Shown here in pieces: positions 19,750 to 30,283 of a stretch of DNA of 30,283 nucleotides. The stretch lies in assembly GCA_021534775.1 (NCBI GenBank), contig GCA_021534775.1_4809.1. One strand, written 5' to 3'. Source of the DNA: a phage. How positions within the stretch are numbered: the stretch's first letter is position 1; the number at the start of each line of letters is the position of its first letter. The notes beneath the pieces were generated by a model. It was given only the letters and a program-made list of their open reading frames with translations, was not told the DNA's origin and made no database searches. Position numbers and translations under genes: made by a program.

Positions 19750-19778
19750 CTTTCTTTCCTTCGGTGATCAATACCTGC

Positions 19779-19806
19779 AGTATAATATTGAGTGATACAA
19801 AGTCAA
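19779..19806 (-). promoter_or_regulatory. Sigma70-like promoter for the minus-strand operon (TTGACT, 16 nt, TATACT)
   Basis: Divergent intergenic region; followed by RBS aaggaaag and the ATG at 19749. Confidence 0.55.
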
Positions 19807-19842
19807 CAATATTTACCATTTAGTTCACAATTTCGATTTACT

Positions 19843-19871
19843 TTGCTTTATACTATATCTGCAATTATACT
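19843..19871 (+). promoter_or_regulatory. Sigma70-like promoter for the plus-strand operon (TTGCTT, 17 nt, TATACT)
   Basis: Lies 38 nt upstream of the ATG at 19910. Confidence 0.5.
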
Positions 19872-19909
19872 ATCAGAAAATATTTCCGCACTAACAAAGG
19901 TCGCCTGAA

Positions 19910-20236
19910 ATGAACGAAAAAGATACGAAGCAACGCGAACGTGCAACACACGTCGGCATCGTTGAGTCCTTCCTTAATACCCGAATGAACTCAAGCCTAA
20001 CAATCATGCGATTCTTGGGTCAACCAGACAGAATCAAATTTATTTTTGCCGCAAATCCGGTATCGCTGTACATCCCTGTTGAATCCATGGCATACTTAGT
20101 GCGCGGCGAGCAAGGATGGAAGATACCAAACACAACTGTTTTCTTTAGCCATGTTGATGGTGAGATGTTTGAAAGAAAAGAAGATTGCCATTTTATTCCA
20201 GTCTATCTGGACCTTGAAAGCGTAGTGGAGTTATAA
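19910..20236 (+). CDS. Hypothetical protein (108 aa)
   Basis: ORF; TAATG overlap with the helicase start. Confidence 0.6.
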   Translation: MNEKDTKQRERATHVGIVESFLNTRMNSSLTIMRFLGQPDRIKFIFAANPVSLYIPVESMAYLVRGEQGWKIPNTTVFFSHVDGEMFERKEDCHFIPVYLDLESVVEL

Positions 20237-21420: not shown

Positions 21421-21579
21421 TGTTGACGTAAATTTACGAAAAATAAAACTGAAAATCAGTTTAATTAAAGTGGCATTGCCGCCATAGTTTTTAGTTGCTA
21501 CTGGCGGCGACTGAAGGCATAATTAAGTTATCCCAAACGGGGAATATAAAATAAACTAATTTATTTAAGGACTGTGAAC

Positions 21580-22419
21580 ATGGCCGAAGCAATCAAAGTA
21601 TTATCCAAAGAAGAAAAACAAGCAGCTGCAGCAGAACGTCGTCGCGTGGCTGAAGAAAAACGCCTGGCTAAAAAGAAAGAAGCCGAAGAAAAACGCCAGA
21701 AGCGTGAGCAGGAAAAACAAGCCAAGCGTGAAGAAGCTGCACTGAAACGCAAGCAGGCCGCTGATGAGAAAGCACAGAAACGTGCTGAAGAAGCAGCGAA
21801 GAAAGCCAAAGAGCGTGCAGAAAAAGCTGCTGCTAAGAAAGCAGAGCGTGAAGCCGCTAAAGCAGCGAAAGAAATCGAAAAGGCAAAGGCTAAAGAAGAA
21901 GCCAAGCGCCTGAAAGCTGAACAAGCTGCTGCTAAGAAAGCAGAGCGTGATCAAGCCCGTGCTGCTGCTAAAGCAGAGAAGGAAAAGGCTAAAGAAGAAG
22001 CGAAAGCCAAACGCAAGGCAGAGCGTGAAGCTGCTAAGATTGCGGCGAAAGAAGCTGCAGAACAGCAGAAAGAACAGCGTAAGCAAGAAGCTGAAGAACG
22101 TCGCAAGGCTATCGCAGAGCGTAAGGCTGCTAAAAAGGCAAACGGTCAGCGTCGTGCAAAAGCTACTCACTTCATCTACACTGGCAACGGCCTGAGCCAG
22201 CCGCAAGAGCATTCCACCCGTGGACGCGTTCTGGCGGCGATCAAAGAAGGCGAAGTTGGCGTGGCGCAGTCTATCGATGAGCTGGGCGAAAAAGTTAAAG
22301 ATCAACTGTTTGGTGCTTCCGTTCGCTCCTACCTGAGCAAGCTGGAAGAGATGGGCCACATCGAGTTTGTCGATGTTGAATCCAACGACGATGCCGAAGA
22401 CGGTGATCAAGCGGAATAA
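21580..22419 (+). CDS. K/E/A-rich charged protein with a globular C-terminal domain (possible winged-helix)
   Basis: About 190 aa of KAEKEAAK-type low-complexity charged helix, then RGRVLAAIKEGEVGVAQSIDELGEKVKDQLFGASVRSYLSKLEEMGHIE; start taken at the ATG with RBS aagga rather than the track GTG at 21574. Confidence 0.65.
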   Translation: MAEAIKVLSKEEKQAAAAERRRVAEEKRLAKKKEAEEKRQKREQEKQAKREEAALKRKQAADEKAQKRAEEAAKKAKERAEKAAAKKAEREAAKAAKEIEKAKAKEEAKRLKAEQAAAKKAERDQARAAAKAEKEKAKEEAKAKRKAEREAAKIAAKEAAEQQKEQRKQEAEERRKAIAERKAAKKANGQRRAKATHFIYTGNGLSQPQEHSTRGRVLAAIKEGEVGVAQSIDELGEKVKDQLFGASVRSYLSKLEEMGHIEFVDVESNDDAEDGDQAE

Positions 22420-22447: not shown

Positions 22448-22475
22448 GACCCACACTTGTTGTGGGTCTTTTTTC
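22448..22475 (+). terminator. Intrinsic terminator
   Basis: gacccacac ttgt tgtgggtc followed by tttttt. Confidence 0.75.
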
Positions 22476-22500: not shown

Positions 22501-22529
22501 TTGCTGTAAAATAATTTAGCTATTATACT
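22501..22529 (+). promoter_or_regulatory. Sigma70-like promoter (TTGCTG, 17 nt, TATACT) for the enzyme operon
   Basis: Lies between the terminator and the ATG at 22560. Confidence 0.5.
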
Positions 22530-22559
22530 TCTCATATCACCCACAAAGGACAAATGAAC

Positions 22560-23549
22560 ATGAAACAACCTGTAATGATTATCGGCGGCGGTTTGGCAGG
22601 ACTTATTACCGCGTGTCACTTCCCGAACTCTATTGTGTACGAAGCAGGGGAGCGAGCGCCACAGCACAAGGCGCTGCTACGCTTTCGCGGCGAAGAAGTA
22701 AGCCGTATTACCGGAATCCCTTTTAAGGCAGTGACAGTTGACAAGGCTGTGTATTTTCGCGGTAACTACTATCACGACCATTGCCCAATCAACCTTGCCA
22801 ATATGTATTCGATGAAGGTCACCAATCAGTTTGGCAGTCGCTCAATCATGAAGCTTAAAGCTGCAACGCGTTATATTGCGCCAGACGACTTCTATGATCA
22901 GCTTGTCGATAAACTGGGGGACCGTATATTCTTTAACACTCCGGTTGACACTCTTTGCGGCTATAGCGAGACGCCAATCATCAACACGTCGCCGCTGCCA
23001 GTTATGATGAAGCTGGCTGGGATTGATCAAAAGCTTGATTTTTCATTTGATAAAGCAAACATTCGTGTTTACCGCTTTAAGATTAAACGTAAGTGTGAGT
23101 TGTATCAGACAATTTACTTCCCTGACTACTCCGTCAGAACTTACCGCGCATCAATCACTGGTGACACACTTATCATCGAAACCATTCCTTTGGTCAGCGT
23201 AAGTGCAGCTGCAGTTGAAGCCGCTGGCGGCATCACTCGTTACCGCGACATGAAGCTTCGCGCAGAAGTCGACGAAGTGTTGACAGCCTTTGGCCTCTCA
23301 TGGAGTGACATTGCTCTTGAAGAAGTTGAAAAGGTCGACCAGAAATATGGCAAGATCGTCGACATTCCGAAGGACTTGCGACACGCCCTACTCCTGCAGC
23401 TGACTATGGATTTGAACGTGTTTAGTGTCGGTCGATTTGCTACCTGGCGCAACATTTTGCTTGATGATGTCGCTCATGACCTTGTTGAAGTTGAAAAACT
23501 CATCAAAGCAAATAACTATCAAAAATTTGCTTATATTGCTAATAAATAA
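22560..23549 (+). CDS. Rossmann-fold FAD/NAD(P)-binding oxidoreductase-like protein
   Basis: N-terminal dinucleotide-binding motif MIIGGGLAGL (GxGxxG); start at ATG 22560 fits the RBS aagga better than the track start at 22554. Confidence 0.65.
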   Translation: MKQPVMIIGGGLAGLITACHFPNSIVYEAGERAPQHKALLRFRGEEVSRITGIPFKAVTVDKAVYFRGNYYHDHCPINLANMYSMKVTNQFGSRSIMKLKAATRYIAPDDFYDQLVDKLGDRIFFNTPVDTLCGYSETPIINTSPLPVMMKLAGIDQKLDFSFDKANIRVYRFKIKRKCELYQTIYFPDYSVRTYRASITGDTLIIETIPLVSVSAAAVEAAGGITRYRDMKLRAEVDEVLTAFGLSWSDIALEEVEKVDQKYGKIVDIPKDLRHALLLQLTMDLNVFSVGRFATWRNILLDDVAHDLVEVEKLIKANNYQKFAYIANK

Positions 23550-23550
23550 T

Positions 23551-23578
23551 TTGCTTTCTGCTTCAATGGGCGTATACT
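23551..23578 (+). promoter_or_regulatory. Sigma70-like promoter (TTGCTT, 16 nt, TATACT) overlapped by an inverted repeat
   Basis: Inverted repeat ctgcttcaatg (23559-23569) / cattgaagcag (23585-23595) brackets the -10. Confidence 0.45.
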
Positions 23579-23614
23579 TTAATCATTGAAGCAGAACTCA
23601 TAGAGGAAACGAAA

Positions 23615-24061
23615 ATGAAACGAATCACTGGAATCGCGCTTGCCGCAACCGCTATTCTCGGCACCATGTATATGGAAGCTACTGAAGCAGCTGTCCGCAC
23701 TTCCGATTCAATCGCTGTGTATGATTGCGAAGCGATGGACGGTAAAACCGCAGCAGCCACTGGCGCAACTATCACGGCTTACATCGGCGTGAACGAGCAA
23801 GAAGGTCTGAATATTCAGATTCAAGGATTCACAGGCAAAGGTGCCAACCGCACTCCTTGGATGCAACGTTTCACTTTCGTTCAGCCTCGTTCAACTGGCG
23901 GCTTTATCAACCTGATTGGTGAAAACCGTTCTGGTGCAGAAATCTTTACATCAATGAGTTCTAATAATGAACCAAAGAAAAGTTTTCAGTTGCTTTATAA
24001 CGCACAATTCGTTTATCATTGCACCTTCTCTGGTGATCAGCAACTAGTAAATTACCGTTAA
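23615..24061 (+). CDS. Putative secreted or periplasmic protein (148 aa)
   Basis: N-terminal signal-peptide-like segment MKRITGIALAATAILG; no lipobox cysteine. Confidence 0.6.
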   Translation: MKRITGIALAATAILGTMYMEATEAAVRTSDSIAVYDCEAMDGKTAAATGATITAYIGVNEQEGLNIQIQGFTGKGANRTPWMQRFTFVQPRSTGGFINLIGENRSGAEIFTSMSSNNEPKKSFQLLYNAQFVYHCTFSGDQQLVNYR

Positions 24062-24074
24062 TAGGATAATTAAA

Positions 24075-24878
24075 ATGAAAGTTGAATTAATTCGATACAC
24101 CCAAGATGCACTTGACCTTCTGCTGGAAACAAAGAACACGCGCATGACTGGTAAGCCTGTCTCTGAGATGACGGAATCAGAGAAGCAAGAGCATTGGCGC
24201 TACATGCTTGACACCATCAAGTCGCCTTTTGACTTTGTGGACTATATCTTTGACATCACCGCTGTATCAAAGAATATGACTCATCAGATGGTACGCACAC
24301 GCACAGGCGCATATCAAGAACGCACCAGCCGCGCTCAGGAATCTTCTGCATTTGATGCGATTCGCCCGAAAGCGTTTGAGTATGACGACCCTGACAGGGT
24401 TATCGGCGAGCGAATCGACGAGCAGCGTTTGAAGTTGGCTAACACCTGGGATGATGCAATGGCAACCATTGATGCCCTATACCAAGAACTTCGCGCGGCT
24501 GGCGCAGAGATTCAGGATGCACGTGCTGTGTTGCCTTCTAATATGCAAACGCATATCATGGCAAAGTTCAACTTGCGCACTCTACAACAAATGGCATCAA
24601 ACCGCTTGTGCACGCGCACTCAAGGCGAATATCAGGAAGTTTTCCGTGCGATGGTAGCGGAAGTCCTCAAGGTGCACCCGTGGGCTAATCCTTTACTACA
24701 GCCGCAATGCATCGGTATGGGTAAGTGCGCATTTCCTCGTCACGGTAAGGCCCATTGCCCATGGTATCGTGGTTGGATGGATACCACTGCACAGCAAGAA
24801 GAGTTGCGCATCCAGTTTTGGAATGCCGCGCCAATCACCAACAATCCAGTTGCTAAAGATGGAGTATCAAAGGGATGA
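24075..24878 (+). CDS. Divergent ThyX-like (flavin-dependent thymidylate synthase family) protein
   Basis: SPFDF...THQMVRTRTGAYQERTSRAQ and ARAVLPSN...NLRTLQQMASNRL match the ThyX signature regions (TPFEH / RHRx7-8S / ARAVLP / NxRxxxxFxxLR as I recall them) but with substitutions at signature positions. Confidence 0.7.
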   Translation: MKVELIRYTQDALDLLLETKNTRMTGKPVSEMTESEKQEHWRYMLDTIKSPFDFVDYIFDITAVSKNMTHQMVRTRTGAYQERTSRAQESSAFDAIRPKAFEYDDPDRVIGERIDEQRLKLANTWDDAMATIDALYQELRAAGAEIQDARAVLPSNMQTHIMAKFNLRTLQQMASNRLCTRTQGEYQEVFRAMVAEVLKVHPWANPLLQPQCIGMGKCAFPRHGKAHCPWYRGWMDTTAQQEELRIQFWNAAPITNNPVAKDGVSKG

Positions 24879-25747
24879 GCATTAAAAACAGTGAAATCTT
24901 AAACGTATTTGACCTTGACGGAACGCTGTTTGATGACCGTTGGCGCTTAGACCGCATCAAGGTGGCAGGACCGCTGTCAGACTACGATGATTATCACTGC
25001 GGCATTGGTTATGATCAGTTCTATCCTAACATTGCATCCGCAGTAGAGGCTGCATCTCTTCGCGGTGAGGCGGTTGAATATTGGACTGCAAGGCCAGAAA
25101 AATACAGACAAGTGACTTTTGAACGTCTGGACAATGTTTTCCCTTTTGATGAATTTACAATCAAGATGAGAGACTCTGGCGACAAACGTCCATCAACTAT
25201 TATGAAGTCTGCATGGCTATCGCACGCATTGCGGCACGGCGATTATCGAATCATCAATGTATTCGACGACCGACAAGACGTACTCGCGCGGATGCAAGAT
25301 GAAGCATTGTATTATAATTCCGTTGCTCAAAATAAAATCGCTTTTACATTTAATCTTTGCAAGGCAGGTGAAGTGGTGCAACAATTAGCAATTGATCCAA
25401 GCGCAACAGGGCAAGAAGAGACTAAGGCTGTGGAAGTTGAACAACCTCCGGCAACCGCTGCTGATATTCTTGATGCGATGGCCGCGACCTTCCGTGAGCG
25501 CAACGCCGTTTATGGCGATAACGCTGTGATGGTAGGTCAGGTTATGCAGGTCCTGTTCCCTAATGGTGTGACGCTGAAAACGCCGGAAGACTACCACATG
25601 TGGCATCTTTTCGAGCTTAAGATTGTCAAGCTTACACGCTTCGCAATCAGCGGCCTGAAGCACGAAGATTCTATACACGACGATGGTGTTTACAGCGCCA
25701 TGTGTGAACGTCTCGTCAACACCCACAATATTAATTTCAATAAATAG
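24875..25747 (+). CDS. HAD-superfamily phosphatase-like domain fused to a C-terminal domain of unknown function
   Basis: Motif I FDLDGTLFD, a Thr in WTARPE, a Lys (MKSAW) and VFDDRQD; C-terminal about 115 aa (RERNAVYGDNAVMVGQV...) is unassigned. ATGA overlap with the ThyX-like gene. Confidence 0.65.
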   Translation: MSIKNSEILNVFDLDGTLFDDRWRLDRIKVAGPLSDYDDYHCGIGYDQFYPNIASAVEAASLRGEAVEYWTARPEKYRQVTFERLDNVFPFDEFTIKMRDSGDKRPSTIMKSAWLSHALRHGDYRIINVFDDRQDVLARMQDEALYYNSVAQNKIAFTFNLCKAGEVVQQLAIDPSATGQEETKAVEVEQPPATAADILDAMAATFRERNAVYGDNAVMVGQVMQVLFPNGVTLKTPEDYHMWHLFELKIVKLTRFAISGLKHEDSIHDDGVYSAMCERLVNTHNINFNK

Positions 25748-25776
25748 TTTACTTGTGCGTTTCGATGAGTTATATT
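25748..25776 (+). promoter_or_regulatory. Sigma70-like promoter (TTTACT, 17 nt, TATATT) overlapped by an inverted repeat
   Basis: Inverted repeat gtttcgatgag (25759-25769) / ctcatcgaaac (25780-25790) brackets the -10. Confidence 0.45.
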
Positions 25777-25812
25777 TATCTCATCGAAACGAAGTCCAAA
25801 AAGGATAAATAA

Positions 25813-26496
25813 ATGAAAAAAGTAATTGTTGTAACTGGCTGCAACTCCGGTCTTGGTAAATCAATTTTTGACACCCTTGGCGCTTACGGTCACGAAGTCG
25901 TCGGAATCGATTTAGACAATGGATATGACATCCGCAATGCTAAACAGATGAAAGAGCTTCTCTCTCAATACGACGTAGAAGGCTTGATCAACTGTGCTGG
26001 CGTCAACTCTAACAACTGGTTTGAAGATGTCAACTACGAAGAGTTCAACCGCGTTATGCACACCAACGCCTTCTCTTTCGTCAACACAACTCAAGCCGCG
26101 CTGAAAAGTCTTATCGACAACAAAGGTTTTGTGATCAACATCGTTTCCAACGCTGCGCATATTCCTATGACGTCCAGCTTGTGTTATAATGCATCCAAGG
26201 CCGCTGCACTGATGATCAGCAAGCAGATGGCCCACGAGCTTACGCCTAAGTACGGCATCACGGTATTCTCTATTAGTCCTAACAAGTTGCGCGGCACTGG
26301 TATGTCTAAGCAGATTGAAGATGCTGTTTGTGCGACTCGCGGCTGGACTCCTGAATACGCCGCTGAATACCAGAAAAAGGCGTTGATGAATGGATTGGAG
26401 ACTGAGCCGCAAGTAATTGCTGACTTCATTCGCCATATCTTAATTACGGGCGCATGGCGCTTTATGTCTGGGACTGATATTCCATTTGGGAAATAA
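25813..26496 (+). CDS. Short-chain dehydrogenase/reductase (SDR) family oxidoreductase
   Basis: TGCNSGLGK (TGxxxGxG), NAG-like INCAGV, catalytic S...YNASK (YxxxK). Confidence 0.85.
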   Translation: MKKVIVVTGCNSGLGKSIFDTLGAYGHEVVGIDLDNGYDIRNAKQMKELLSQYDVEGLINCAGVNSNNWFEDVNYEEFNRVMHTNAFSFVNTTQAALKSLIDNKGFVINIVSNAAHIPMTSSLCYNASKAAALMISKQMAHELTPKYGITVFSISPNKLRGTGMSKQIEDAVCATRGWTPEYAAEYQKKALMNGLETEPQVIADFIRHILITGAWRFMSGTDIPFGK

Positions 26497-26499
26497 ATC

Positions 26500-26667
26500 A
26501 TGACTATCAAAGTTGTTGTAGAAGTGATTGGCGACGTGGCAGAAGTGAAGATTGATCAAGAAGGCGTTGGATTTGAAGTAATAAGAATCGAAAACGCAAA
26601 GGTTAACCACGAGCGCGTCGGTTCCATTGAGACTTATTCCATAGAAGGCAAAGATAAGGGCGAATAA
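26500..26667 (+). CDS. Small protein (55 aa, MTIKVVVEVIGDVAEVKIDQEGVGFEVIRIENAKVNHERVGSIETYSIEGKDKGE)
   Basis: Hand-translated ORF packed between the SDR and the next gene with 3-nt spacers. Confidence 0.4.
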   Translation: MTIKVVVEVIGDVAEVKIDQEGVGFEVIRIENAKVNHERVGSIETYSIEGKDKGE

Positions 26668-26669
26668 CC

Positions 26670-26885
26670 ATGAACAAAGCCTGGATAGCGGTAATCGGTT
26701 TAGTGCTTCTTGTTGTATTAGGATACACAATCAAATTTGAAGTTCCAAATCCTGTTGAGCCTGACAAAAAGATTGTCGTTGAAGTCCCAGGCGCTAAAGG
26801 TGAATTGCCCAAACCTAAATTTGAAGTTGTCACACCAGCTCCTGAAAAGAAACAGGACGAAGACAACACAGTAATTAATCAATAA
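26670..26885 (+). CDS. Small membrane-anchored protein (71 aa)
   Basis: N-terminal TM helix WIAVIGLVLLVVLGY followed by a Pro/Lys/Glu-rich tail. Confidence 0.55.
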   Translation: MNKAWIAVIGLVLLVVLGYTIKFEVPNPVEPDKKIVVEVPGAKGELPKPKFEVVTPAPEKKQDEDNTVINQ

Positions 26886-26905
26886 TATTTAATTAAGGAA
26901 ACAAA

Positions 26906-27457
26906 ATGCCACATTTTAAAATTGAACAAATCGCCCTGTCCATTCCAGATGCTCAACGCGCTCAGGACTTCCTGGCTAAAATCGGCCTGACAGAGTGGTT
27001 CCATGATCATGTTGTTGCTACTGGTCGCGTATTTGAAGCTGATGACTTTAAAGGTCGTCGCGACGATTGCACCAATGAAGCTGACTTGCGCTTCAACTAT
27101 CAGGCTGGCAACGGCACCGATGTCGGCGCTGGTAAGCCTCTTGAGCTTGAAATCCTTGACTACACAATGGGCTGCAACTGGATTAATGAAAACATCGAAT
27201 ATATCGATGCGCACGATAATCAGGTCAGCCACCTTGGCATGCACGTGACTGCCGCTGAACTCGCTGAATGGCGTAAGTTCTTTAGTGAAGAAGGCATTCA
27301 GGTTGCACAGGAAGTTGTAACCGACTCTCACACCAACCCAAATATTGCTGGTCAGCGTCGTTACAACTATGTGATCTTTGATACTCGTGAAATCATCGGT
27401 GTCGACCTTAAGTTCATTGTGCGGTTGAATCAAGACGGTACTCCGTACACTGTATAA
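26906..27457 (+). CDS. VOC (glyoxalase / bleomycin-resistance / dioxygenase) fold protein, tentative
   Basis: RBS aagga; overall pattern including SHLGMHV suggests a metal-binding VOC-type fold, but the assignment is weak. Confidence 0.5.
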   Translation: MPHFKIEQIALSIPDAQRAQDFLAKIGLTEWFHDHVVATGRVFEADDFKGRRDDCTNEADLRFNYQAGNGTDVGAGKPLELEILDYTMGCNWINENIEYIDAHDNQVSHLGMHVTAAELAEWRKFFSEEGIQVAQEVVTDSHTNPNIAGQRRYNYVIFDTREIIGVDLKFIVRLNQDGTPYTV

Positions 27458-27473
27458 AGAATCTTAAATCTGT

Positions 27474-27498
27474 GGCCGTCCTAATGGGCGGCCTTTTT
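27474..27498 (+). terminator. Intrinsic terminator
   Basis: ggccgtcc taat gggcggcc followed by ttttt. Confidence 0.7.
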
Positions 27499-27511: not shown

Positions 27512-28054
27512 GTGTTATTTCTCCCTTATGACTTCGAAACAACCGGATTGACCGTGCACCCGAAAGCGCCGCTTGGAATGCAGCCGCGCCCTATTGAATT
27601 TGCAGGCCTGTTGACAGACGGCAAAGAGATTCTTGAAACGTTCGAGTTCATAATTAATCCTGAAATTGTGATTGAAGAAATCATCACAAAGATTACCGGA
27701 TTAACCAATGAAGACCTTGAGTGCAATCCACCATTCATCAACTTCGTCCCGCAGCTAAAAGAAATCTTCAAGAAGACGGATGCAACTATTGCGCACAACC
27801 ATGCGTTCGATAAGAACATTCTTGATTATGCACTACAGCGCGAAGGACTTACGCTTGATGATGTTAATTTTCCAGAAATAAACATATGTACAGTTGAGCA
27901 AACCTTGCCTATTTTTGGCCGAAGAGTTAAGCTTCAAGAGTTGTATGAATTATATTTCGGAAAATATGAACAGAAGCACCGTGCATTAGACGACGTAATA
28001 TTACTGCACAAAGTCTGCCAACAAATTGGCGTATATGACATCTGGAGTAAATAA
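27512..28054 (+). CDS. DnaQ-like DEDDh 3'-5' exonuclease (proofreading subunit-like)
   Basis: GTG start 5 nt after aggagg; Exo I YDFETTG, Exo II AHNHAFD, Exo III HRALDD. Confidence 0.85.
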   Translation: MLFLPYDFETTGLTVHPKAPLGMQPRPIEFAGLLTDGKEILETFEFIINPEIVIEEIITKITGLTNEDLECNPPFINFVPQLKEIFKKTDATIAHNHAFDKNILDYALQREGLTLDDVNFPEINICTVEQTLPIFGRRVKLQELYELYFGKYEQKHRALDDVILLHKVCQQIGVYDIWSK

Positions 28055-30283
28055 TGTTTCCACAATTGAGAGTTCGCAGCGGTTACACGTTCAAAGAAGT
28101 TTATGGACGGCATCCTGAAATTATAGCACGGCTCAAAGAGTTGGGCTGCGAAGTCGCGGCATTAGTTGATAACAATACATGGGGTCACGTTCGCTGGGAA
28201 AAGGAATGCCAGAAAAATGATATTAAGCCTATGTTTGGGATGGAGATTCCAATCATCGACCCTGATGCGGACCCGAAAAAGGGATTCAAACCGAAGGCTT
28301 GGATATTGGCCCTTGACTTAAAATCTTTTTACAACGCTACAACACTTGCAACGCAGCGCGGTGGACTTACCCGTGCAGAGTTCGGGGCGCTCGATGGCGT
28401 CGTTAAATTCTGTGGCGGTGCCGTGGAGCTGCTGCGGCCAGAGGACTACGACTATATAGACGTCAACCCATCATCGTTCCTTTTGGCAAAGCGCCAGGCA
28501 TTGGCTCATCGTAGCGGTGGAAGGCCGCTGGTTTTAACCGGATACAATCACATGCCTTCTCCTGAGCACGTTGACTTCGCTTATGCTTGGGAAGTTCGCG
28601 ACACTGTGAAGCCGCATTGCATCGTTGACGTGGAAGACTTGCGCAAACAGCTTAAAGGCATCTTGACTGAAGATGAGCTCAATCAGGCAACGGCCAATGC
28701 TGTTGACATAGCAAACGGCATAGTCGGACTTGACTTGAAATTGCGTAAGGCACCGATTATTCACCTTGCTGGTGACATGGTAAAGCTTGCTCGCGAGGGG
28801 ATGGAGTACCGTCTAAAAGCAGGTCACATCAAAGAATGGACTCAGGAATATGAGGACCGCTTCAACGAAGAAATTCACCAGATTCAGCTGAAAGATTTCG
28901 ACTCATACTTTCTGGTAGTAGCCGACCTTGTACGATTCGCAAAAACAAAAATGCTTGTCGGTCCTGCGCGCGGCTCATCGGCTGGTTCACTTGTTTGCTA
29001 TTGCCTCGGCATCACGGAAGTGGACCCAATACCGTATAAGCTGCTGTTTGCCCGATTCATCGACGTAAGCCGCGCCGACCTTCCTGACATCGACATCGAC
29101 TTTGAAGATACCAAACGCTATATGGTGTTTGATTATCTTAAAGAGAAATACGGCGAAATGAACGTTGCAAAGCTTGGCAACATCAACACGCTTAAGGCCA
29201 ACTCAGTAATGGCGCAGGTTGGTAAGAAGTTCAACATTGGATACCACGAAACGGCCAACATTAAAAACGCACTGCTTGAATACTCATCCGGTGACGCCCG
29301 TTATGGTCACGGCCTGGAGGATACCTTTGCAACAACGACCACGGGTCAAGAGTTCGTGGCGAAATATCCTGACGCCGCGCGTTGCATGGGTGACCTTGAG
29401 ATTCACCCGTCTCACACAGGTGTTCACGCAGCGGGAATCATTGTGTGTAATGACCCAATCTCTGATTACTGTACTGTAACTGCAGAAGGGATTGCGCAAA
29501 TTGATAAGCCTGACAGCGAATACCTTAACCTTTTGAAGCTTGATGCGTTGGGCCTTCGTACCCTCGGCATCATTTCTGATACTGGCGTGATAGATGCTGA
29601 AACGCTGTACGGAATCAAGCTTGATGATCAAAGCGTCCTTGACATCCTTAACGAAAACAAAATGTCAGGCATCTTCCAGTTTGAAGGTGACGCTGTACGC
29701 TCAGTAACCAACTTTGTGCACGTTGATAACTTTAACAAAATCGATAACCTGACAGCACTTGGTCGACCTGGCCCGTTGTCATCCGGTATGGCCCAGAAAT
29801 ACATCGAACGCGCGGCAGGGCGTGCACCGATTGAGTATGATGTGCCGCAGCTTGAGCCGTACTTAAAAGAGACTTACGGCGTGTTTCTTTACCAAGAGCA
29901 AATCATGGCCGTGGTTAAAGAGATTGGTTCATTTGACTGGGCGAAAACATCCGCTGTACGTAAGGCGATGTCAGGCCGTAAGGGTGAGGAATACTTTAAC
30001 AAGCTTGGCGAAGACTTCGTTGCAGGCGCAATAAATAATGGCGTACCGGAAGCGGATGCAAGAAAGCTTTGGCAGGCGATGGCGACGTTCGGGTCATGGG
30101 GCTTTAACAAGTCACACTCCGTGTCATACGCGGTCGTGACCTACTGGACCTTGTGGCTTAAACGACACTACCCGTTGGAATTTGCCGCTGCTTGCTTACG
30201 CGCTGCTAAGGACGAAGACCAGACGATTGCGATATTACGTGAACTTGCGAAGGAAGGCGTGGATTACGTTCCAATCGACCCTG
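28054..30283 (+). CDS. dnaE: DNA polymerase III alpha (DnaE-type) catalytic subunit, 3'-partial
   Basis: ATG overlaps the exonuclease stop (TAATG) and the frame stays open to the window end. Palm motifs GSSAGSLVCYCLGITEVDP and FARFIDVSRADLPDIDIDFEDTKR; N-terminal PHP region with degenerate His motif (QLRVRSGYTF). Confidence 0.9.
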   Translation, partial: MFPQLRVRSGYTFKEVYGRHPEIIARLKELGCEVAALVDNNTWGHVRWEKECQKNDIKPMFGMEIPIIDPDADPKKGFKPKAWILALDLKSFYNATTLATQRGGLTRAEFGALDGVVKFCGGAVELLRPEDYDYIDVNPSSFLLAKRQALAHRSGGRPLVLTGYNHMPSPEHVDFAYAWEVRDTVKPHCIVDVEDLRKQLKGILTEDELNQATANAVDIANGIVGLDLKLRKAPIIHLAGDMVKLAREGMEYRLKAGHIKEWTQEYEDRFNEEIHQIQLKDFDSYFLVVADLVRFAKTKMLVGPARGSSAGSLVCYCLGITEVDPIPYKLLFARFIDVSRADLPDIDIDFEDTKRYMVFDYLKEKYGEMNVAKLGNINTLKANSVMAQVGKKFNIGYHETANIKNALLEYSSGDARYGHGLEDTFATTTTGQEFVAKYPDAARCMGDLEIHPSHTGVHAAGIIVCNDPISDYCTVTAEGIAQIDKPDSEYLNLLKLDALGLRTLGIISDTGVIDAETLYGIKLDDQSVLDILNENKMSGIFQFEGDAVRSVTNFVHVDNFNKIDNLTALGRPGPLSSGMAQKYIERAAGRAPIEYDVPQLEPYLKETYGVFLYQEQIMAVVKEIGSFDWAKTSAVRKAMSGRKGEEYFNKLGEDFVAGAINNGVPEADARKLWQAMATFGSWGFNKSHSVSYAVVTYWTLWLKRHYPLEFAAACLRAAKDEDQTIAILRELAKEGVDYVPIDP

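What the first reader, a model, noticed from the sequence alone, without database searches (positions are those of the whole stretch)
22501..27498. Operon of small-molecule-type enzymes inside the replication module: candidate nucleotide or DNA-base modification pathway
Between a terminator (22448-22475) and another (27474-27498), one promoter-led block encodes a Rossmann FAD/NAD-binding protein, a secreted protein, a divergent ThyX-like protein, a HAD-type phosphatase fused to an unknown domain, an SDR oxidoreductase, two small proteins and a tentative VOC-fold protein. It sits directly between the Dda-like helicase and the DnaQ/DnaE genes. Phage nucleotide-modification genes are typically placed with replication genes, and a folate/flavin enzyme plus phosphatase plus redox enzymes is the kind of set that could make and process a modified dNMP. 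I do not recognise this gene combination as any described hypermodification pathway, but I cannot search, so novelty is unverified. An alternative is an auxiliary metabolic or resistance cassette (moron).
Basis: partly seen in the sequence, partly recalled or inferred. Interest (0 to 1): 0.8.

Follow-up and report, generated by a model that had tools for sequence, protein, structure and literature searches.

The report
Candidate thymidine-hypermodification operon in coliphage
This phage operon holds an unusual thymidylate-synthase-like enzyme that always travels with a partner flavoprotein and a phosphatase beside the phage DNA polymerase. It is the best candidate for the still-unassigned genes that attach sugar-like groups to thymine in the DNA of related therapeutic Pseudomonas phages.

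Summary
Between two strong terminators lie eight tightly packed plus-strand genes. The window is a Wifcevirus-type E. coli myovirus.

- **Conserved module:** flavoprotein → divergent ThyX → HAD phosphatase + DUF6378-like four-helix domain → (SDR → VOC) → DnaQ → DnaE. Among 48 viral loci with enough flanking sequence, ThyX was present in 48, HAD plus the helix domain in 45, and DnaQ/DnaE in 46. SDR and VOC were both present in 33 and both absent in 14.
- **Lineage-specific inserts:** the "secreted" protein and the two small proteins.
- **A distinct ThyX subfamily:** it keeps every dUMP-binding arginine but replaces H53, H59, H79 and Y91 in all 79 sequences. It also falls below NCBI's thyX cutoff.
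- **Published link:** the module's core also occurs in Pbunavirus, whose DNA was recently shown to carry sugar- or polyol-modified thymidines made by unidentified genes. [quoted passage not shown]
- **By elimination:** no other enzyme-like genes were found in these genomes.

I conclude, with moderate confidence (0.55), that this is a new thymidine-hypermodification module. The chemistry is inferred, and no nucleoside analysis or restriction digest of Wifcevirus DNA was found in the searched literature.

The parts
22448..22475 (+). Intrinsic terminator closing the upstream K/E/A-rich gene; 5' boundary of the block
   Evidence: 8-bp stem (5 GC pairs) plus T run, a top-scoring site; annotated as a terminator at the equivalent place in Mansfield
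22554..23549 (+). Compact (331 aa) FAD-dependent flavoprotein of the UGM / protoporphyrinogen-oxidase / amine-oxidase superfamily (phrog_4828); obligate partner of the ThyX subfamily
23615..24061 (+). 148-aa protein with a signal-peptide-like N-terminus; a lineage-specific insert in the variable slot between the flavoprotein and ThyX, not part of the conserved module
   Evidence: No family hit. Found only in Wifcevirus proper (L009-L012) among 80 loci. Hydrophobic N-terminus.
24075..24878 (+). Divergent ThyX-family (flavin-dependent thymidylate synthase fold) enzyme of a distinct subfamily
   Evidence: Pfam Thy1 E = 1.6e-29. Below the NCBIfam thyX equivalog cutoff, 80.1 against 87.9 bits. Signature I53, F59, [T/S/N]79, non-aromatic 91 and R178, with R78, R80, R90, R147 and R174 retained, in 79 sequences. 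Only 21-31% identical to other phage ThyX.
24875..25408 (+). HAD phosphatase domain (T4 Pnkp phosphatase type, no kinase domain) with intact catalytic motifs
   Evidence: Pfam HAD_PNKP 35.8 bits, above the 27.6 cutoff. Profile against PDB: T4 Pnkp phosphatase E = 1e-7. Invariant D13, D15, T71, K111, D131 and D132. Start codon overlaps the ThyX stop by 4 nt.
25445..25747 (+). C-terminal four-helix-bundle domain, a divergent DUF6378; a separate gene in some lineages
   Evidence: AF2 shows four helices at pLDDT above 90. 16 of 23 members hit PF19905, best E = 3e-6. No PDB relative, and not related to the phage's MazG-like protein. Encoded as a separate ORF in 3 flavoprotein clusters.
25813..26496 (+). 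Classical short-chain dehydrogenase/reductase; optional sub-module paired with the VOC gene
   Evidence: adh_short E = 1e-31. All NCBIfam equivalogs far below cutoff. Nearest PDB relatives are FabG-type, E = 6e-13. Co-present or co-absent with VOC in 47 of 48 loci.
26500..26667 (+). 55-aa protein, lineage-specific
   Evidence: No family hit. Detected only in L009 and L011.
26670..26885 (+). 71-aa single-pass membrane protein, lineage-specific
   Evidence: Kyte-Doolittle 19-residue maximum 2.24 at residues 5-23. Not detected in other loci.
26906..27457 (+). Probable VOC-fold (glyoxalase / epimerase / dioxygenase superfamily) protein; paired with the SDR
   Evidence: Glyoxalase_4 sub-threshold; 11 of 22 members match, best E = 9e-6. 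Invariant H109, H142 and E82; H113 nearly invariant. No PDB sequence relative.
27474..27498 (+). Intrinsic terminator; 3' boundary of the block
   Evidence: 8-bp stem (7 GC pairs) plus T run, the best site in the region; annotated in Mansfield, WFH and WFC
27512..30283 (+). DnaQ-like 3'-5' exonuclease (27512-28054) and DnaE-type polymerase (28054 to the window end, incomplete); the invariably linked downstream neighbours of the module
   Evidence: RNase_T E = 1e-21. DnaQ plus DnaE follow the module in 46 of 48 loci.

Best explanation
The block is the Wifcevirus version of a widely conserved phage module that makes a C5-substituted uracil, that is, a thymidine hypermodification, for the phage's own DNA.

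**Shown:**
- The module and its gene order, and its near-obligate linkage to a DnaQ-DnaE replicase.
- The distinct ThyX subfamily signature.
- Intact catalytic motifs in the HAD and SDR proteins.
- The presence of the core trio in Pbunavirus, whose DNA is experimentally hypermodified at thymidine.

**Inferred mechanism:**
1. The ThyX-subfamily enzyme still binds dUMP, because all the dUMP-contacting arginines are kept, and performs flavin-N5-mediated carbon transfer to C5. Its altered folate/NADPH and FAD-contact positions (H53I, H59F, H79T, Y91A) divert the reaction. The exocyclic-methylene intermediate is captured, as 5-hydroxymethyl-dUMP or directly as a sugar/polyol adduct, instead of being simply reduced to dTMP.
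2. The partner flavoprotein supplies either the redox step or the sugar-activating step.
3. The HAD phosphatase, together with its DUF6378 domain, removes a phosphate from a phosphorylated intermediate, for example a sugar-phosphate side chain.
4. Where present, the SDR and VOC pair tailors the appended group by keto-reduction or epimerisation. Wifcevirus should therefore carry a derivative different from the 362-Da and 390-Da nucleosides of Pbunavirus F8 and 14-1.
5. The product protects the DNA from restriction enzymes.

The 148-, 55- and 71-aa genes are passengers.
For: - **Module conservation.** In 48 viral loci with at least 7.5 kb downstream of the flavoprotein, ThyX was present in 48, HAD plus the 4-helix domain in 45, and DnaQ plus DnaE in 46. 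The loci span 19 flavoprotein clusters at about 55% identity, including lineages without the Pbunavirus-type helicase.
- **Unrelated phages.** The trio also occurs in a Rhizobium jumbo phage, next to dUTPase and RNR, and the flavoprotein-ThyX pair in a Vibrio podophage.
- **Matching distribution.** In GenBank phages the flavoprotein (362 records) and the ThyX subfamily (about 354 records at 37% identity or more) occur in the same taxa. All other phage ThyX are only 21-31% identical.
- **ThyX signature.** Found in 79 of 79 sequences, with the dUMP-binding arginines invariant. The protein falls below the NCBI thyX equivalog cutoff.
- **Motif role and chemical plausibility.** The RHR motif is the highly conserved FAD-contacting motif of the family (PMC6514825). 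ThyX intermediates give 5-hydroxymethyl-dUMP when trapped by water (PMC4913046).
- **Pbunavirus DNA is modified.** About a quarter of thymidines are replaced by 362-Da and 390-Da nucleosides, TG-containing sites resist cleavage, and the authors note that no known modification genes are present (PMC12191111). Native Nanopore sequencing fails specifically for Pbunavirus.
[quoted passage not shown] Bas98 has 18 EcoRI sites against 19 expected.
- **By elimination.** No glycosyltransferase, kinase, dioxygenase or ThyA homolog is annotated or detectable elsewhere in the genome.
- **Operon structure.** Translational coupling and operon-like packing.
Against: - No nucleoside analysis or restriction digest of DNA from any Wifcevirus was found in the searched papers.
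- The Pbunavirus modification is reported as TG-specific. That implies a DNA-level, sequence-reading enzyme, and none of the module's proteins has a recognisable DNA-binding or base-flipping domain.
- No sugar-nucleotide synthesis gene or glycosyltransferase is present.
- F8 and 14-1 carry different adducts, yet their flavoprotein (97%) and ThyX (94%) are nearly identical. Only the HAD protein (81%) and small ORFs differ.
- F8 DNA is cut by EcoRI, whereas Wifcevirus resists EcoRI in vivo, so the two cannot have the same pattern.
- Actinophage 'ThyX-like' proteins also deviate from the canonical motif, so deviation alone does not prove a new activity.
- The module's conservation together with DnaE could reflect shared descent of a replication block, not functional coupling.
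Confidence: 0.55

Rival explanations
1. An ordinary nucleotide-supply module. The ThyX is a genuine, merely divergent, flavin-dependent thymidylate synthase that boosts dTMP for very fast replication. The flavoprotein is its dedicated NAD(P)H:flavin reductase or oxidase partner, and the HAD enzyme is a nucleotidase. Any DNA modification in these phages would be made by other, unrecognised genes.
For: - Pfam Thy1 hit well above threshold, with all dUMP-binding arginines conserved.
- Placement among replication genes, and next to dUTPase and RNR in the Rhizobium phage.
- Loss of H53, which by my recollection is the residue that stacks on folate and NADPH, could explain the need for an external reductase.
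- About 75% of thymidines in Pbunavirus DNA are canonical and must be supplied somehow.
- Public records annotate it as a thymidylate synthase.
Against: - It fails the NCBI thyX equivalog cutoff.
- The family-defining RHR histidine and Y91 are replaced in all 79 members.
- It does not explain the strictly paired SDR and VOC genes, or the HAD-DUF6378 protein conserved in 45 of 48 loci.
- No other candidate enzymes for the demonstrated Pbunavirus modification were found.
- E. coli and Pseudomonas hosts already have ThyA (my background knowledge).
Confidence: 0.25
2. An auxiliary metabolic or resistance cassette (moron) acting on host small molecules or the envelope, for example sugar or O-antigen chemistry through a UGM-like mutase, an SDR and a secreted protein. 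It would be unrelated to phage DNA.
For: - Some records annotate the first gene as UDP-galactopyranose mutase.
- PHROGs files the SDR under 'moron, auxiliary metabolic gene'.
- These phages depend on O-antigen receptors.
- A signal-peptide protein sits inside the block.
Against: - The module is ancient, syntenic and welded to DnaQ-DnaE across at least 19 clusters and many host genera.
- Its base composition is native.
- The secreted protein is a Wifcevirus-only insert.
- The module always contains a nucleotide enzyme, ThyX.
Confidence: 0.07
3. A nucleic-acid repair or anti-defence module. The Pnkp-type phosphatase would heal 3'-phosphate ends made by host anticodon nucleases or other nucleases, with the other enzymes serving unrelated roles.
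For: The HAD domain is closest to the T4 Pnkp phosphatase domain. PHROGs and GenBank label it 'polynucleotide kinase/phosphorylase'.
Against: - No kinase domain, and no RNA ligase partner in the block. The one annotated ATP-dependent DNA ligase lies about 9 kb away.
- The HAD gene is translationally coupled to ThyX and co-conserved with it and the flavoprotein. A repair role does not explain that.
Confidence: 0.05

Closest known systems
Thymidine hypermodification pathways built on 5-hydroxymethyl-dU (phages PhiW-14, SP10, ViI, M6, PaMx11; Lee et al. 2018, 2021)
   Same: The outcome in the Pbunavirus relatives is the same kind: a bulky C5 substituent on part of the thymidines that blocks restriction enzymes. 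The genes sit with nucleotide and replication genes, and flavoenzymes can take part, as with PaMx11 gp47.
   Different: Those pathways use a ThyA-family dUMP hydroxymethylase, a P-loop 5-hmdU DNA kinase and aGPT-Pplase transferases, and append amino acids or polyamines. None of these is present here. Here the C5 enzyme is ThyX-fold and the appended groups in relatives are sugar- or polyol-like.
Canonical flavin-dependent thymidylate synthase ThyX/FDTS (T. maritima, M. tuberculosis)
   Same: Same fold and family (Pfam Thy1, E = 1.6e-29). Q75, R78, R80, R90, R147, R174, Q180 and E182 are retained.
   Different: The RHRx7S motif reads RTRx7T. H53 is I, H59 is F, Y91 is A or V, and position 178 is R, in 79 of 79 subfamily members. 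It scores below the NCBI equivalog cutoff. It is always accompanied by a dedicated second flavoprotein. The myovirus clade adds a Cys-rich C-terminal extension.
UDP-galactopyranose mutase (Glf/UGM)
Bacillus phage SP-15 5-(4',5'-dihydroxypentyl)uracil
   Same: A polyol-type chain on C5 of uracil partly replaces thymine. It is labelled from ribose and made as a nucleoside triphosphate (titles cited in PMC5977210). SP-15 encodes a divergent second Thy1-family protein (gp130) immediately downstream of an SDR (gp129), which its authors proposed to be a modified-uridylate synthase.
   Different: gp129 and gp130 are not specifically related to the window's SDR and ThyX (BLAST E = 0.27; hhalign probability 50%). 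No flavoprotein homolog lies next to them. The resemblance is a chemical precedent, not homology.
5-hydroxycytosine arabinosylation in RB69 and DLP3 (Lee et al. 2026)
   Same: A thymidylate-synthase homolog has been repurposed, with a flavin, to install a new C5 group at the mononucleotide stage, and a sugar is added afterwards.
   Different: That enzyme is ThyA-fold and acts on dCMP. The pathway includes NDP-arabinose synthesis genes, DNA glycosyltransferases and a dNMP kinase. None of these is found here.
T4 polynucleotide kinase-phosphatase (Pnkp)
   Same: The HAD domain is of the Pnkp phosphatase type, with all catalytic motifs.
   Different: No kinase domain. It is fused instead to a DUF6378-like four-helix bundle.

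Membership tests
ThyX / flavin-dependent thymidylate synthase | Thy1 fold and family profile match | tested here: met
   Pfam PF02511 E = 1.6e-29, 103.5 bits against a 24.8 cutoff; aligns to T. maritima and M. tuberculosis ThyX
ThyX / flavin-dependent thymidylate synthase | ThyX motif RHRx7S | tested here: not met
   Reads R-T-R-x7-T in the window. Position 79 is T, S or N in 79 of 79 subfamily members. Position 88 is T in 55, S in 21 and A in 3. The motif's role in FAD contact is from PMC6514825.
ThyX / flavin-dependent thymidylate synthase | Score above the curated equivalog cutoff (same function expected) | tested here: not met
   NCBIfam TIGR02170 thyX: 80.1 bits against a cutoff of 87.9
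ThyX / flavin-dependent thymidylate synthase | dUMP-binding arginines (R78, R80, R90, R147, R174) | tested here: met
   Invariant in the 79 subfamily sequences and the 6 canonical sequences
ThyX / flavin-dependent thymidylate synthase | Makes dTMP from dUMP, CH2-THF and NADPH | not testable with these tools
   Needs an enzyme assay or thyA-deletion complementation
UDP-galactopyranose mutase | FAD-binding Rossmann domain and overall UGM-like fold | tested here: inconclusive
UDP-galactopyranose mutase | GLF substrate-binding domain profile | tested here: not met
   No Pfam family at E <= 0.1 and no NCBIfam family at E <= 0.01; the profile finds no UGM in PDB sequences
HAD phosphatase (Pnkp phosphatase type) | Motif I DxDxT, motif II T/S, motif III K, motif IV DD | tested here: met
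   D13-L-D15-G-T, T71, K111 and D131-D132 are invariant in 49 sequences. Pfam HAD_PNKP 35.8 bits against a 27.6 cutoff.
Polynucleotide kinase-phosphatase (as annotated in GenBank and PHROGs) | P-loop 5'-kinase domain | tested here: not met
   Only the phosphatase domain matches. The C-terminal part is a four-helix DUF6378-like domain.
Classical SDR | TGxxxGxG cofactor motif and the catalytic Ser-Tyr-Lys | tested here: met
   T8-G-C-N-S-G-L-G, S111 and Y125-x3-K129, read from the translation. adh_short E = 1e-31.
FabG 3-oxoacyl-ACP reductase (as annotated) | Score above the curated FabG cutoffs | tested here: not met
   Best FabG models score 75 bits against cutoffs of 222-269
VOC (glyoxalase / dioxygenase) superfamily | Profile match to a VOC family | tested here: inconclusive
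   Glyoxalase_4 scores 18.3 bits against a cutoff of 27. 11 of 22 homologs match, best E = 9e-6. No structure model could be made.
DUF6378 | Profile match | tested here: inconclusive
   16 of 23 homologs match PF19905, best E = 3e-6. The one homolog with a bit score on record is below the gathering score, and the window copy does not match at E <= 0.1.
5-hmdU-based thymidine hypermodification systems | ThyA-family dUMP hydroxymethylase, 5-hmdU DNA kinase and aGPT-Pplase | tested here: not met
   None is annotated in the complete Bas98 genome. Pfam and PHROGs scans of the larger unknown proteins found none.
Phage DNA hypermodification system (generic) | Non-canonical nucleoside in virion DNA that depends on these genes | not testable with these tools
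   Shown only for the Pbunavirus relatives, and without a genetic link. No such data for Wifcevirus were found.

The most novel reading that the evidence does not exclude
The ThyX-subfamily enzyme and its UGM/PPO-like partner together perform a new kind of flavin chemistry. A flavin-N5 iminium is formed with an open-chain sugar phosphate (as in UGM) instead of with methylene (as in ThyX). C5 of dUMP attacks it, forming a C-C bond, followed by reduction. This would give 5-(polyhydroxyalkyl)-dUMP.

The HAD enzyme would then remove the terminal phosphate, and the SDR and VOC pair would tailor the chain. The 362-Da Pbunavirus nucleoside has the same elemental formula (C14H22N2O9, my arithmetic) as 5-(tetrahydroxypentyl)-dU. 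That compound would be an oxygenated analogue of SP-15's ribose-derived dihydroxypentyluracil, whose biosynthesis has been unknown for 50 years.
Probability: 0.15. Interest if true: 0.92.

Novelty: new variant of a known kind. Interest (0 to 1): 0.78.

Why it matters
Pbunavirus phages are among the most used therapeutic phages against Pseudomonas aeruginosa. Their DNA was only recently found to be hypermodified, and the genes responsible are unknown.

This analysis nominates a specific and very widespread gene module. The flavoprotein family alone has more than 1000 clusters at 50% identity. The analysis also predicts that the Wifcevirus coliphages, which are now available in the BASEL collection on E. 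coli K-12, carry a related but distinct modification. That would explain their unexplained restriction resistance.

If confirmed, it would:
- define a thymidine-hypermodification route based on a ThyX-fold enzyme instead of a ThyA-fold enzyme;
- give a sequence marker for predicting modified genomes, which matters for sequencing, cloning, defence evasion and choosing phages for therapy;
- possibly reveal new flavin-dependent nucleobase chemistry.

Tried and rejected
- **Sequence searches of the flavoprotein and HAD protein against PDB.** Nothing useful, so structure prediction was needed.
- **Are the SP-15 gp129, gp130 and gp131 proteins homologous to the block?** Only at the broad family level. 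gp131 is unrelated to the flavoprotein.
- **Is the C-terminal helix domain MazG-like?** Rejected: hhalign probability 1% against the phage's own MazG-like protein, and no PDB hit.
- **Could a phage T-dioxygenase explain TG-specific modification?** The T-dioxygenase paper does not cover these phages, and no such domain was found.
- **Could restriction-site avoidance explain Wifcevirus RM resistance?** Rejected for EcoRI (18 sites against 19 expected), although GATC, XbaI, BsaI and EcoRV sites are depleted.
- **Is there published restriction-digest or LC-MS data on Wifcevirus DNA?** None found.
- **Do F8 and 14-1 differ in the core enzymes?** No, not in the flavoprotein or ThyX.
- **AFDB fold search.** The library was unavailable.
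- **Locus L009.** It encodes an identical flavoprotein but is not identical to the window at the DNA level.

Full report
**What is there.**

The window belongs to a Wifcevirus-type E. coli myovirus. The 5-kb region is 92-95% identical at the DNA level to 29 phage records, including HermannAdler/Bas98, Mansfield, FEC19, ECML-117, WFC and WFH.

They are packed with gaps of -4 to 65 nt, and most have RBS-like sequences upstream. The ThyX stop overlaps the HAD start.

The two flanking terminator-like hairpins are the best-scoring ones in the region. They are also annotated in relatives.

The sigma-70-like site upstream matches only 9 of 12 positions, and such sites are no more frequent here than in shuffled sequence. 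The 'promoter-led' claim is therefore unsupported.

A 281-aa K/E/A-rich gene lies between the Dda-like helicase and the block, so the block is not directly adjacent to the helicase. Base composition is the same as in the rest of the window.

**What each protein is.**

- **ORF 22554-23549** has no Pfam or NCBIfam hit. It belongs to a large, tight family (phrog_4828; 1139 representative clusters at 50% identity, all about 300-330 aa).
  - A confident AF2 model (pLDDT 87.9) places it in the UGM / protoporphyrinogen-oxidase / amine-oxidase flavoprotein superfamily.
  - The 'UDP-galactopyranose mutase' label in some records is therefore not established.
  - The family has a GxGxxG FAD motif and many invariant basic residues.
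- **ORF 24075-24878** is a ThyX-fold protein (Pfam Thy1, E = 1.6e-29). It scores below NCBI's thyX equivalog cutoff (80.1 against 87.9 bits).
- **ORF 24875-25747** has two parts.
  - The first is a HAD phosphatase of the T4 Pnkp phosphatase type, with all catalytic motifs invariant and no kinase domain.
  - The second is a well-predicted four-helix bundle. It is a divergent DUF6378 (16 of 23 homologs match), has no solved relative, and shows no similarity to the phage's MazG-like protein.
- **ORF 25813-26496** is a classical SDR with intact motifs but no specific subfamily assignment.
- **ORF 26906-27457** is probably VOC-fold, on weak evidence.
- **The 148-aa protein** has a signal-peptide-like N-terminus, and the 71-aa protein has one membrane helix.

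**The key finding: a conserved module.**

tblastn against GenBank phages finds the flavoprotein in 362 records. These are about 290 Pseudomonas Pbunavirus genomes, the Wifcevirus group, phages of Serratia, Pantoea, Xanthomonas and Luteibacter, a Vibrio podophage and Rhizobium jumbo phages. The HAD/DUF6378 protein is found in essentially the same set.

In PB1 the homologs are gp68, gp61 (ThyX) and gp59. In the unrelated Rhizobium phage RHph_TM2_3B the three genes lie within 7 kb, next to dUTPase and RNR. In Vibrio phage VA-RY-3 the flavoprotein and ThyX genes are adjacent, upstream of DnaE.

I fetched 80 IMG/VR loci encoding the flavoprotein and searched their ORFs with profiles of each window protein. 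Results for the 48 loci with at least 7.5 kb downstream:

| Feature | Loci (of 48) |
|---|---|
| ThyX subfamily present | 48 |
| HAD domain plus four-helix domain | 45 |
| DnaQ plus DnaE | 46 |
| SDR and VOC both present | 33 |
| SDR and VOC both absent | 14 |
| VOC only | 1 |

- The gene order is almost always flavoprotein, ThyX, HAD/4-helix, (SDR, VOC), DnaQ, DnaE.
- The loci fall into 19 flavoprotein clusters at about 55% identity. Many lack the Pbunavirus-type Dda helicase and K/E/A-rich gene.
- In three clusters the HAD and four-helix domains are separate genes.
- The 148-aa, 55-aa and 71-aa genes occur only in Wifcevirus proper, so they are passengers. The stretch between the flavoprotein and ThyX is a variable slot of 0.8-3.9 kb.
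- Pbunavirus proper lacks SDR and VOC.

**The ThyX is a distinct subfamily.**

Among GenBank phages, about 354 records hold a ThyX at least 37% identical over nearly its full length, in the same taxa as the flavoprotein. Every other phage ThyX is only 21-31% identical.

I aligned 79 subfamily sequences with T. maritima and M. tuberculosis ThyX and four ordinary phage ThyX. In T. maritima numbering:

| Position | Proven ThyX and typical phage ThyX | Subfamily |
|---|---|---|
| Q75, R78, R80, R90, R147, R174, Q180, E182 | conserved | invariant or nearly so |
| 53 | H | I in 79 of 79 |
| 59 | H | F in 79 of 79 |
| 79 | H | T, S or N in 79 of 79 |
| 88 | S | T in 55, S in 21, A in 3 |
| 91 | Y | V or A, never aromatic |
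| 178 | H or Q | R in 78 of 78 |

- The Rhizobium and Vibrio phage proteins share this signature.
- The RHR motif is the family's highly conserved FAD-contacting motif (PMC6514825).
- Two actinophage 'ThyX-like' proteins also deviate from the motif (RQR, F91). Deviation alone therefore does not prove a new activity.
- ThyX reaction intermediates give 5-hydroxymethyl-dUMP when trapped by water (PMC4913046). A hydroxymethylating or adduct-forming ThyX variant is therefore chemically plausible.

**Link to experimental observations.**

- A 2025 preprint on END nucleases reports several findings for Pbunavirus F8 and 14-1 (PMC12191111).
  - Their DNA was long thought unmodified, but about a quarter of thymidines are replaced by novel nucleosides of 362 and 390 Da.
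  - All tested restriction sites containing TG resist cleavage.
  - The authors note that these phages lack the genes previously implicated in genome modification. They do not mention ThyX or the flavoprotein.
- A 2026 preprint independently reports that native Nanopore sequencing fails specifically for Pbunavirus and is rescued by PCR.
- I calculate that 26-27% of T's in the F8 segment are followed by G, which fits 'one quarter'.
[quoted passage not shown] The exception is EcoP1_I (PMC11990801).
- Bas98 has 18 EcoRI sites against 19 expected, so site avoidance does not explain the resistance.
- Neither the full Bas98 annotation nor Pfam and PHROGs scans of the larger unknown proteins reveal a glycosyltransferase, kinase, dioxygenase or ThyA homolog. 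This block therefore holds essentially all the non-replicative enzymes of the genome.
- No paper in the searched library connects these genes to the modification.

**Interpretation.**

The best-supported reading (confidence about 0.55) is that the block is the Wifcevirus version of a widespread module that makes a C5-substituted uracil for phage DNA.

- The module, its linkage and the subfamily signature are shown.
- The assignment of steps is inferred:
  - ThyX variant: C5 functionalisation of dUMP.
  - Partner flavoprotein: a redox or sugar-activating step.
  - HAD/DUF6378: dephosphorylation of an intermediate.
  - SDR and VOC: tailoring of the appended group.
- Because Pbunavirus lacks SDR and VOC, Wifcevirus should carry a different derivative. 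This would fit its broader restriction resistance: F8 is cut by EcoRI, whereas Wifcevirus resists EcoRI in vivo.

**Weak points.**

- No nucleoside or restriction data on Wifcevirus DNA were found in the searched papers.
- The TG specificity in Pbunavirus implies a DNA-level enzyme, and no such enzyme is recognisable in the module.
- No sugar donor pathway or glycosyltransferase is present.
- F8 and 14-1 differ in their adducts, yet their flavoprotein (97%) and ThyX (94%) are nearly identical. The HAD protein (81%) and neighbouring small ORFs (78-82%) differ more.

**Rivals.**

- The main rival (about 0.25) is that this is an ordinary dTMP-supply module, in which a divergent but genuine ThyX needs an external flavin reductase.
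- A moron or auxiliary metabolic role (about 0.07) is unlikely, given the ancient synteny with the replicase.
- A Pnkp-type repair role (about 0.05) is unlikely for the same reason.

**Most novel reading not excluded (about 0.15).**

UGM and ThyX both work through flavin-N5 iminium adducts. A combined system could couple C1 of an open-chain sugar phosphate to C5 of dUMP by a C-C bond.

- The 362-Da nucleoside has the same formula as 5-(tetrahydroxypentyl)-dU (my arithmetic).
- That compound would be an oxygenated analogue of SP-15's 5-(4',5'-dihydroxypentyl)uracil. The SP-15 base is labelled from ribose and made as a triphosphate (reference titles in PMC5977210).
- SP-15 places a divergent Thy1-family gene directly after an SDR gene. 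Those proteins are not specifically related to the window's, so this is a precedent only.

**Verdict.**

This is a new variant of a known kind, phage DNA hypermodification. It shares no component with the described thymidine-hypermodification pathways, and it is directly testable in the BASEL Wifcevirus isolates and in Pbunavirus.

Noticed in passing
window 21574-22419 (+): A 281-aa protein with a long K/E/A-rich low-complexity N-terminal part and a conserved C-terminal globular part (phrog_4765). It sits directly upstream of the flavoprotein in every locus that also has the Dda-like helicase, including PB1 gp69 and F8 ORF66. The reverse strand carries long spurious ORFs because of the repeat-like composition.
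   Followed up: partly
whole window (and the Bas98 genome, L002 + L006): Marked skews in short palindromes, given as observed against expected. Window: GATC 43/117, EcoRV 0/8.5, XbaI 1/8.5, BsaI 1/12, while HindIII AAGCTT is enriched at 28/8.5. Bas98: GATC 109/264, XbaI 0/19, BsaI 2/28, EcoRV 3/19, CAGCAG 72/28.
   Followed up: no
window 23549-24075; loci L009-L088: The stretch between the flavoprotein and ThyX genes is a variable insertion slot of 0.8 to 3.9 kb across loci. In the window it holds the 148-aa signal-peptide protein, which is found only in Wifcevirus proper.
   Followed up: partly
window 24075-24878, residues ~212-228 of the ThyX-like protein: A C-terminal extension with a conserved Cys motif (C-x5-C-A-F-P-R ... 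C-P-x-[Y/W]-R-x-W-M). It is present in 36 of 79 subfamily members, including all helicase-linked myovirus lineages, and absent from canonical ThyX. It may be a metal site. The other members have a different tail.
   Followed up: partly
window ~19750-19910: Divergent transcription point. Genes from about 7.6 to 19.75 kb are on the - strand and genes from 19.91 kb onward are on the + strand. GC skew changes sign at about 7 kb and about 20 kb.
   Followed up: no
L039-L045, L048, L059, L065, L069-L070, L077-L078, L083, L086: In several lineages the HAD phosphatase and the DUF6378-like four-helix domain are separate adjacent genes. This shows that the helix domain is an independent functional unit.
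   Followed up: partly
L090, L091 (Gordonia phage Lila22, Mycobacterium phage PBI1): Actinophage 'ThyX-like thymidylate synthases' (about 370-400 aa) also depart from the canonical motif (RQR, L53, A59, F91) in a pattern different from the subfamily described here. They may be another functionally divergent ThyX group.
   Followed up: no
L089 40026-44045 (Bacillus phage SP-15 genes 129-131): In the dihydroxypentyluracil phage SP-15, an SDR gene (gp129) abuts a 413-aa, very divergent Thy1-family gene (gp130). This is followed by a 691-aa protein with no Pfam domain.
   Followed up: partly
L007/L008 (F8 vs 14-1), ORF70: The gene that differs most between F8 and 14-1 in the compared 18-kb segment is ORF70 (57% identity). 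It is a protein with a CxxCxGxG-type zinc-ribbon motif and a coiled-coil-like middle. The two phages carry different thymidine adducts.
   Followed up: no
L002 31636-33113 (Bas98_0039/0040, outside the window): Two 'hypothetical' proteins downstream of the replication genes match Pfam Pam3_Gp34 (E = 4e-86) and Pam3 gp33-like DUF7307 (E = 3e-37).
   Followed up: no
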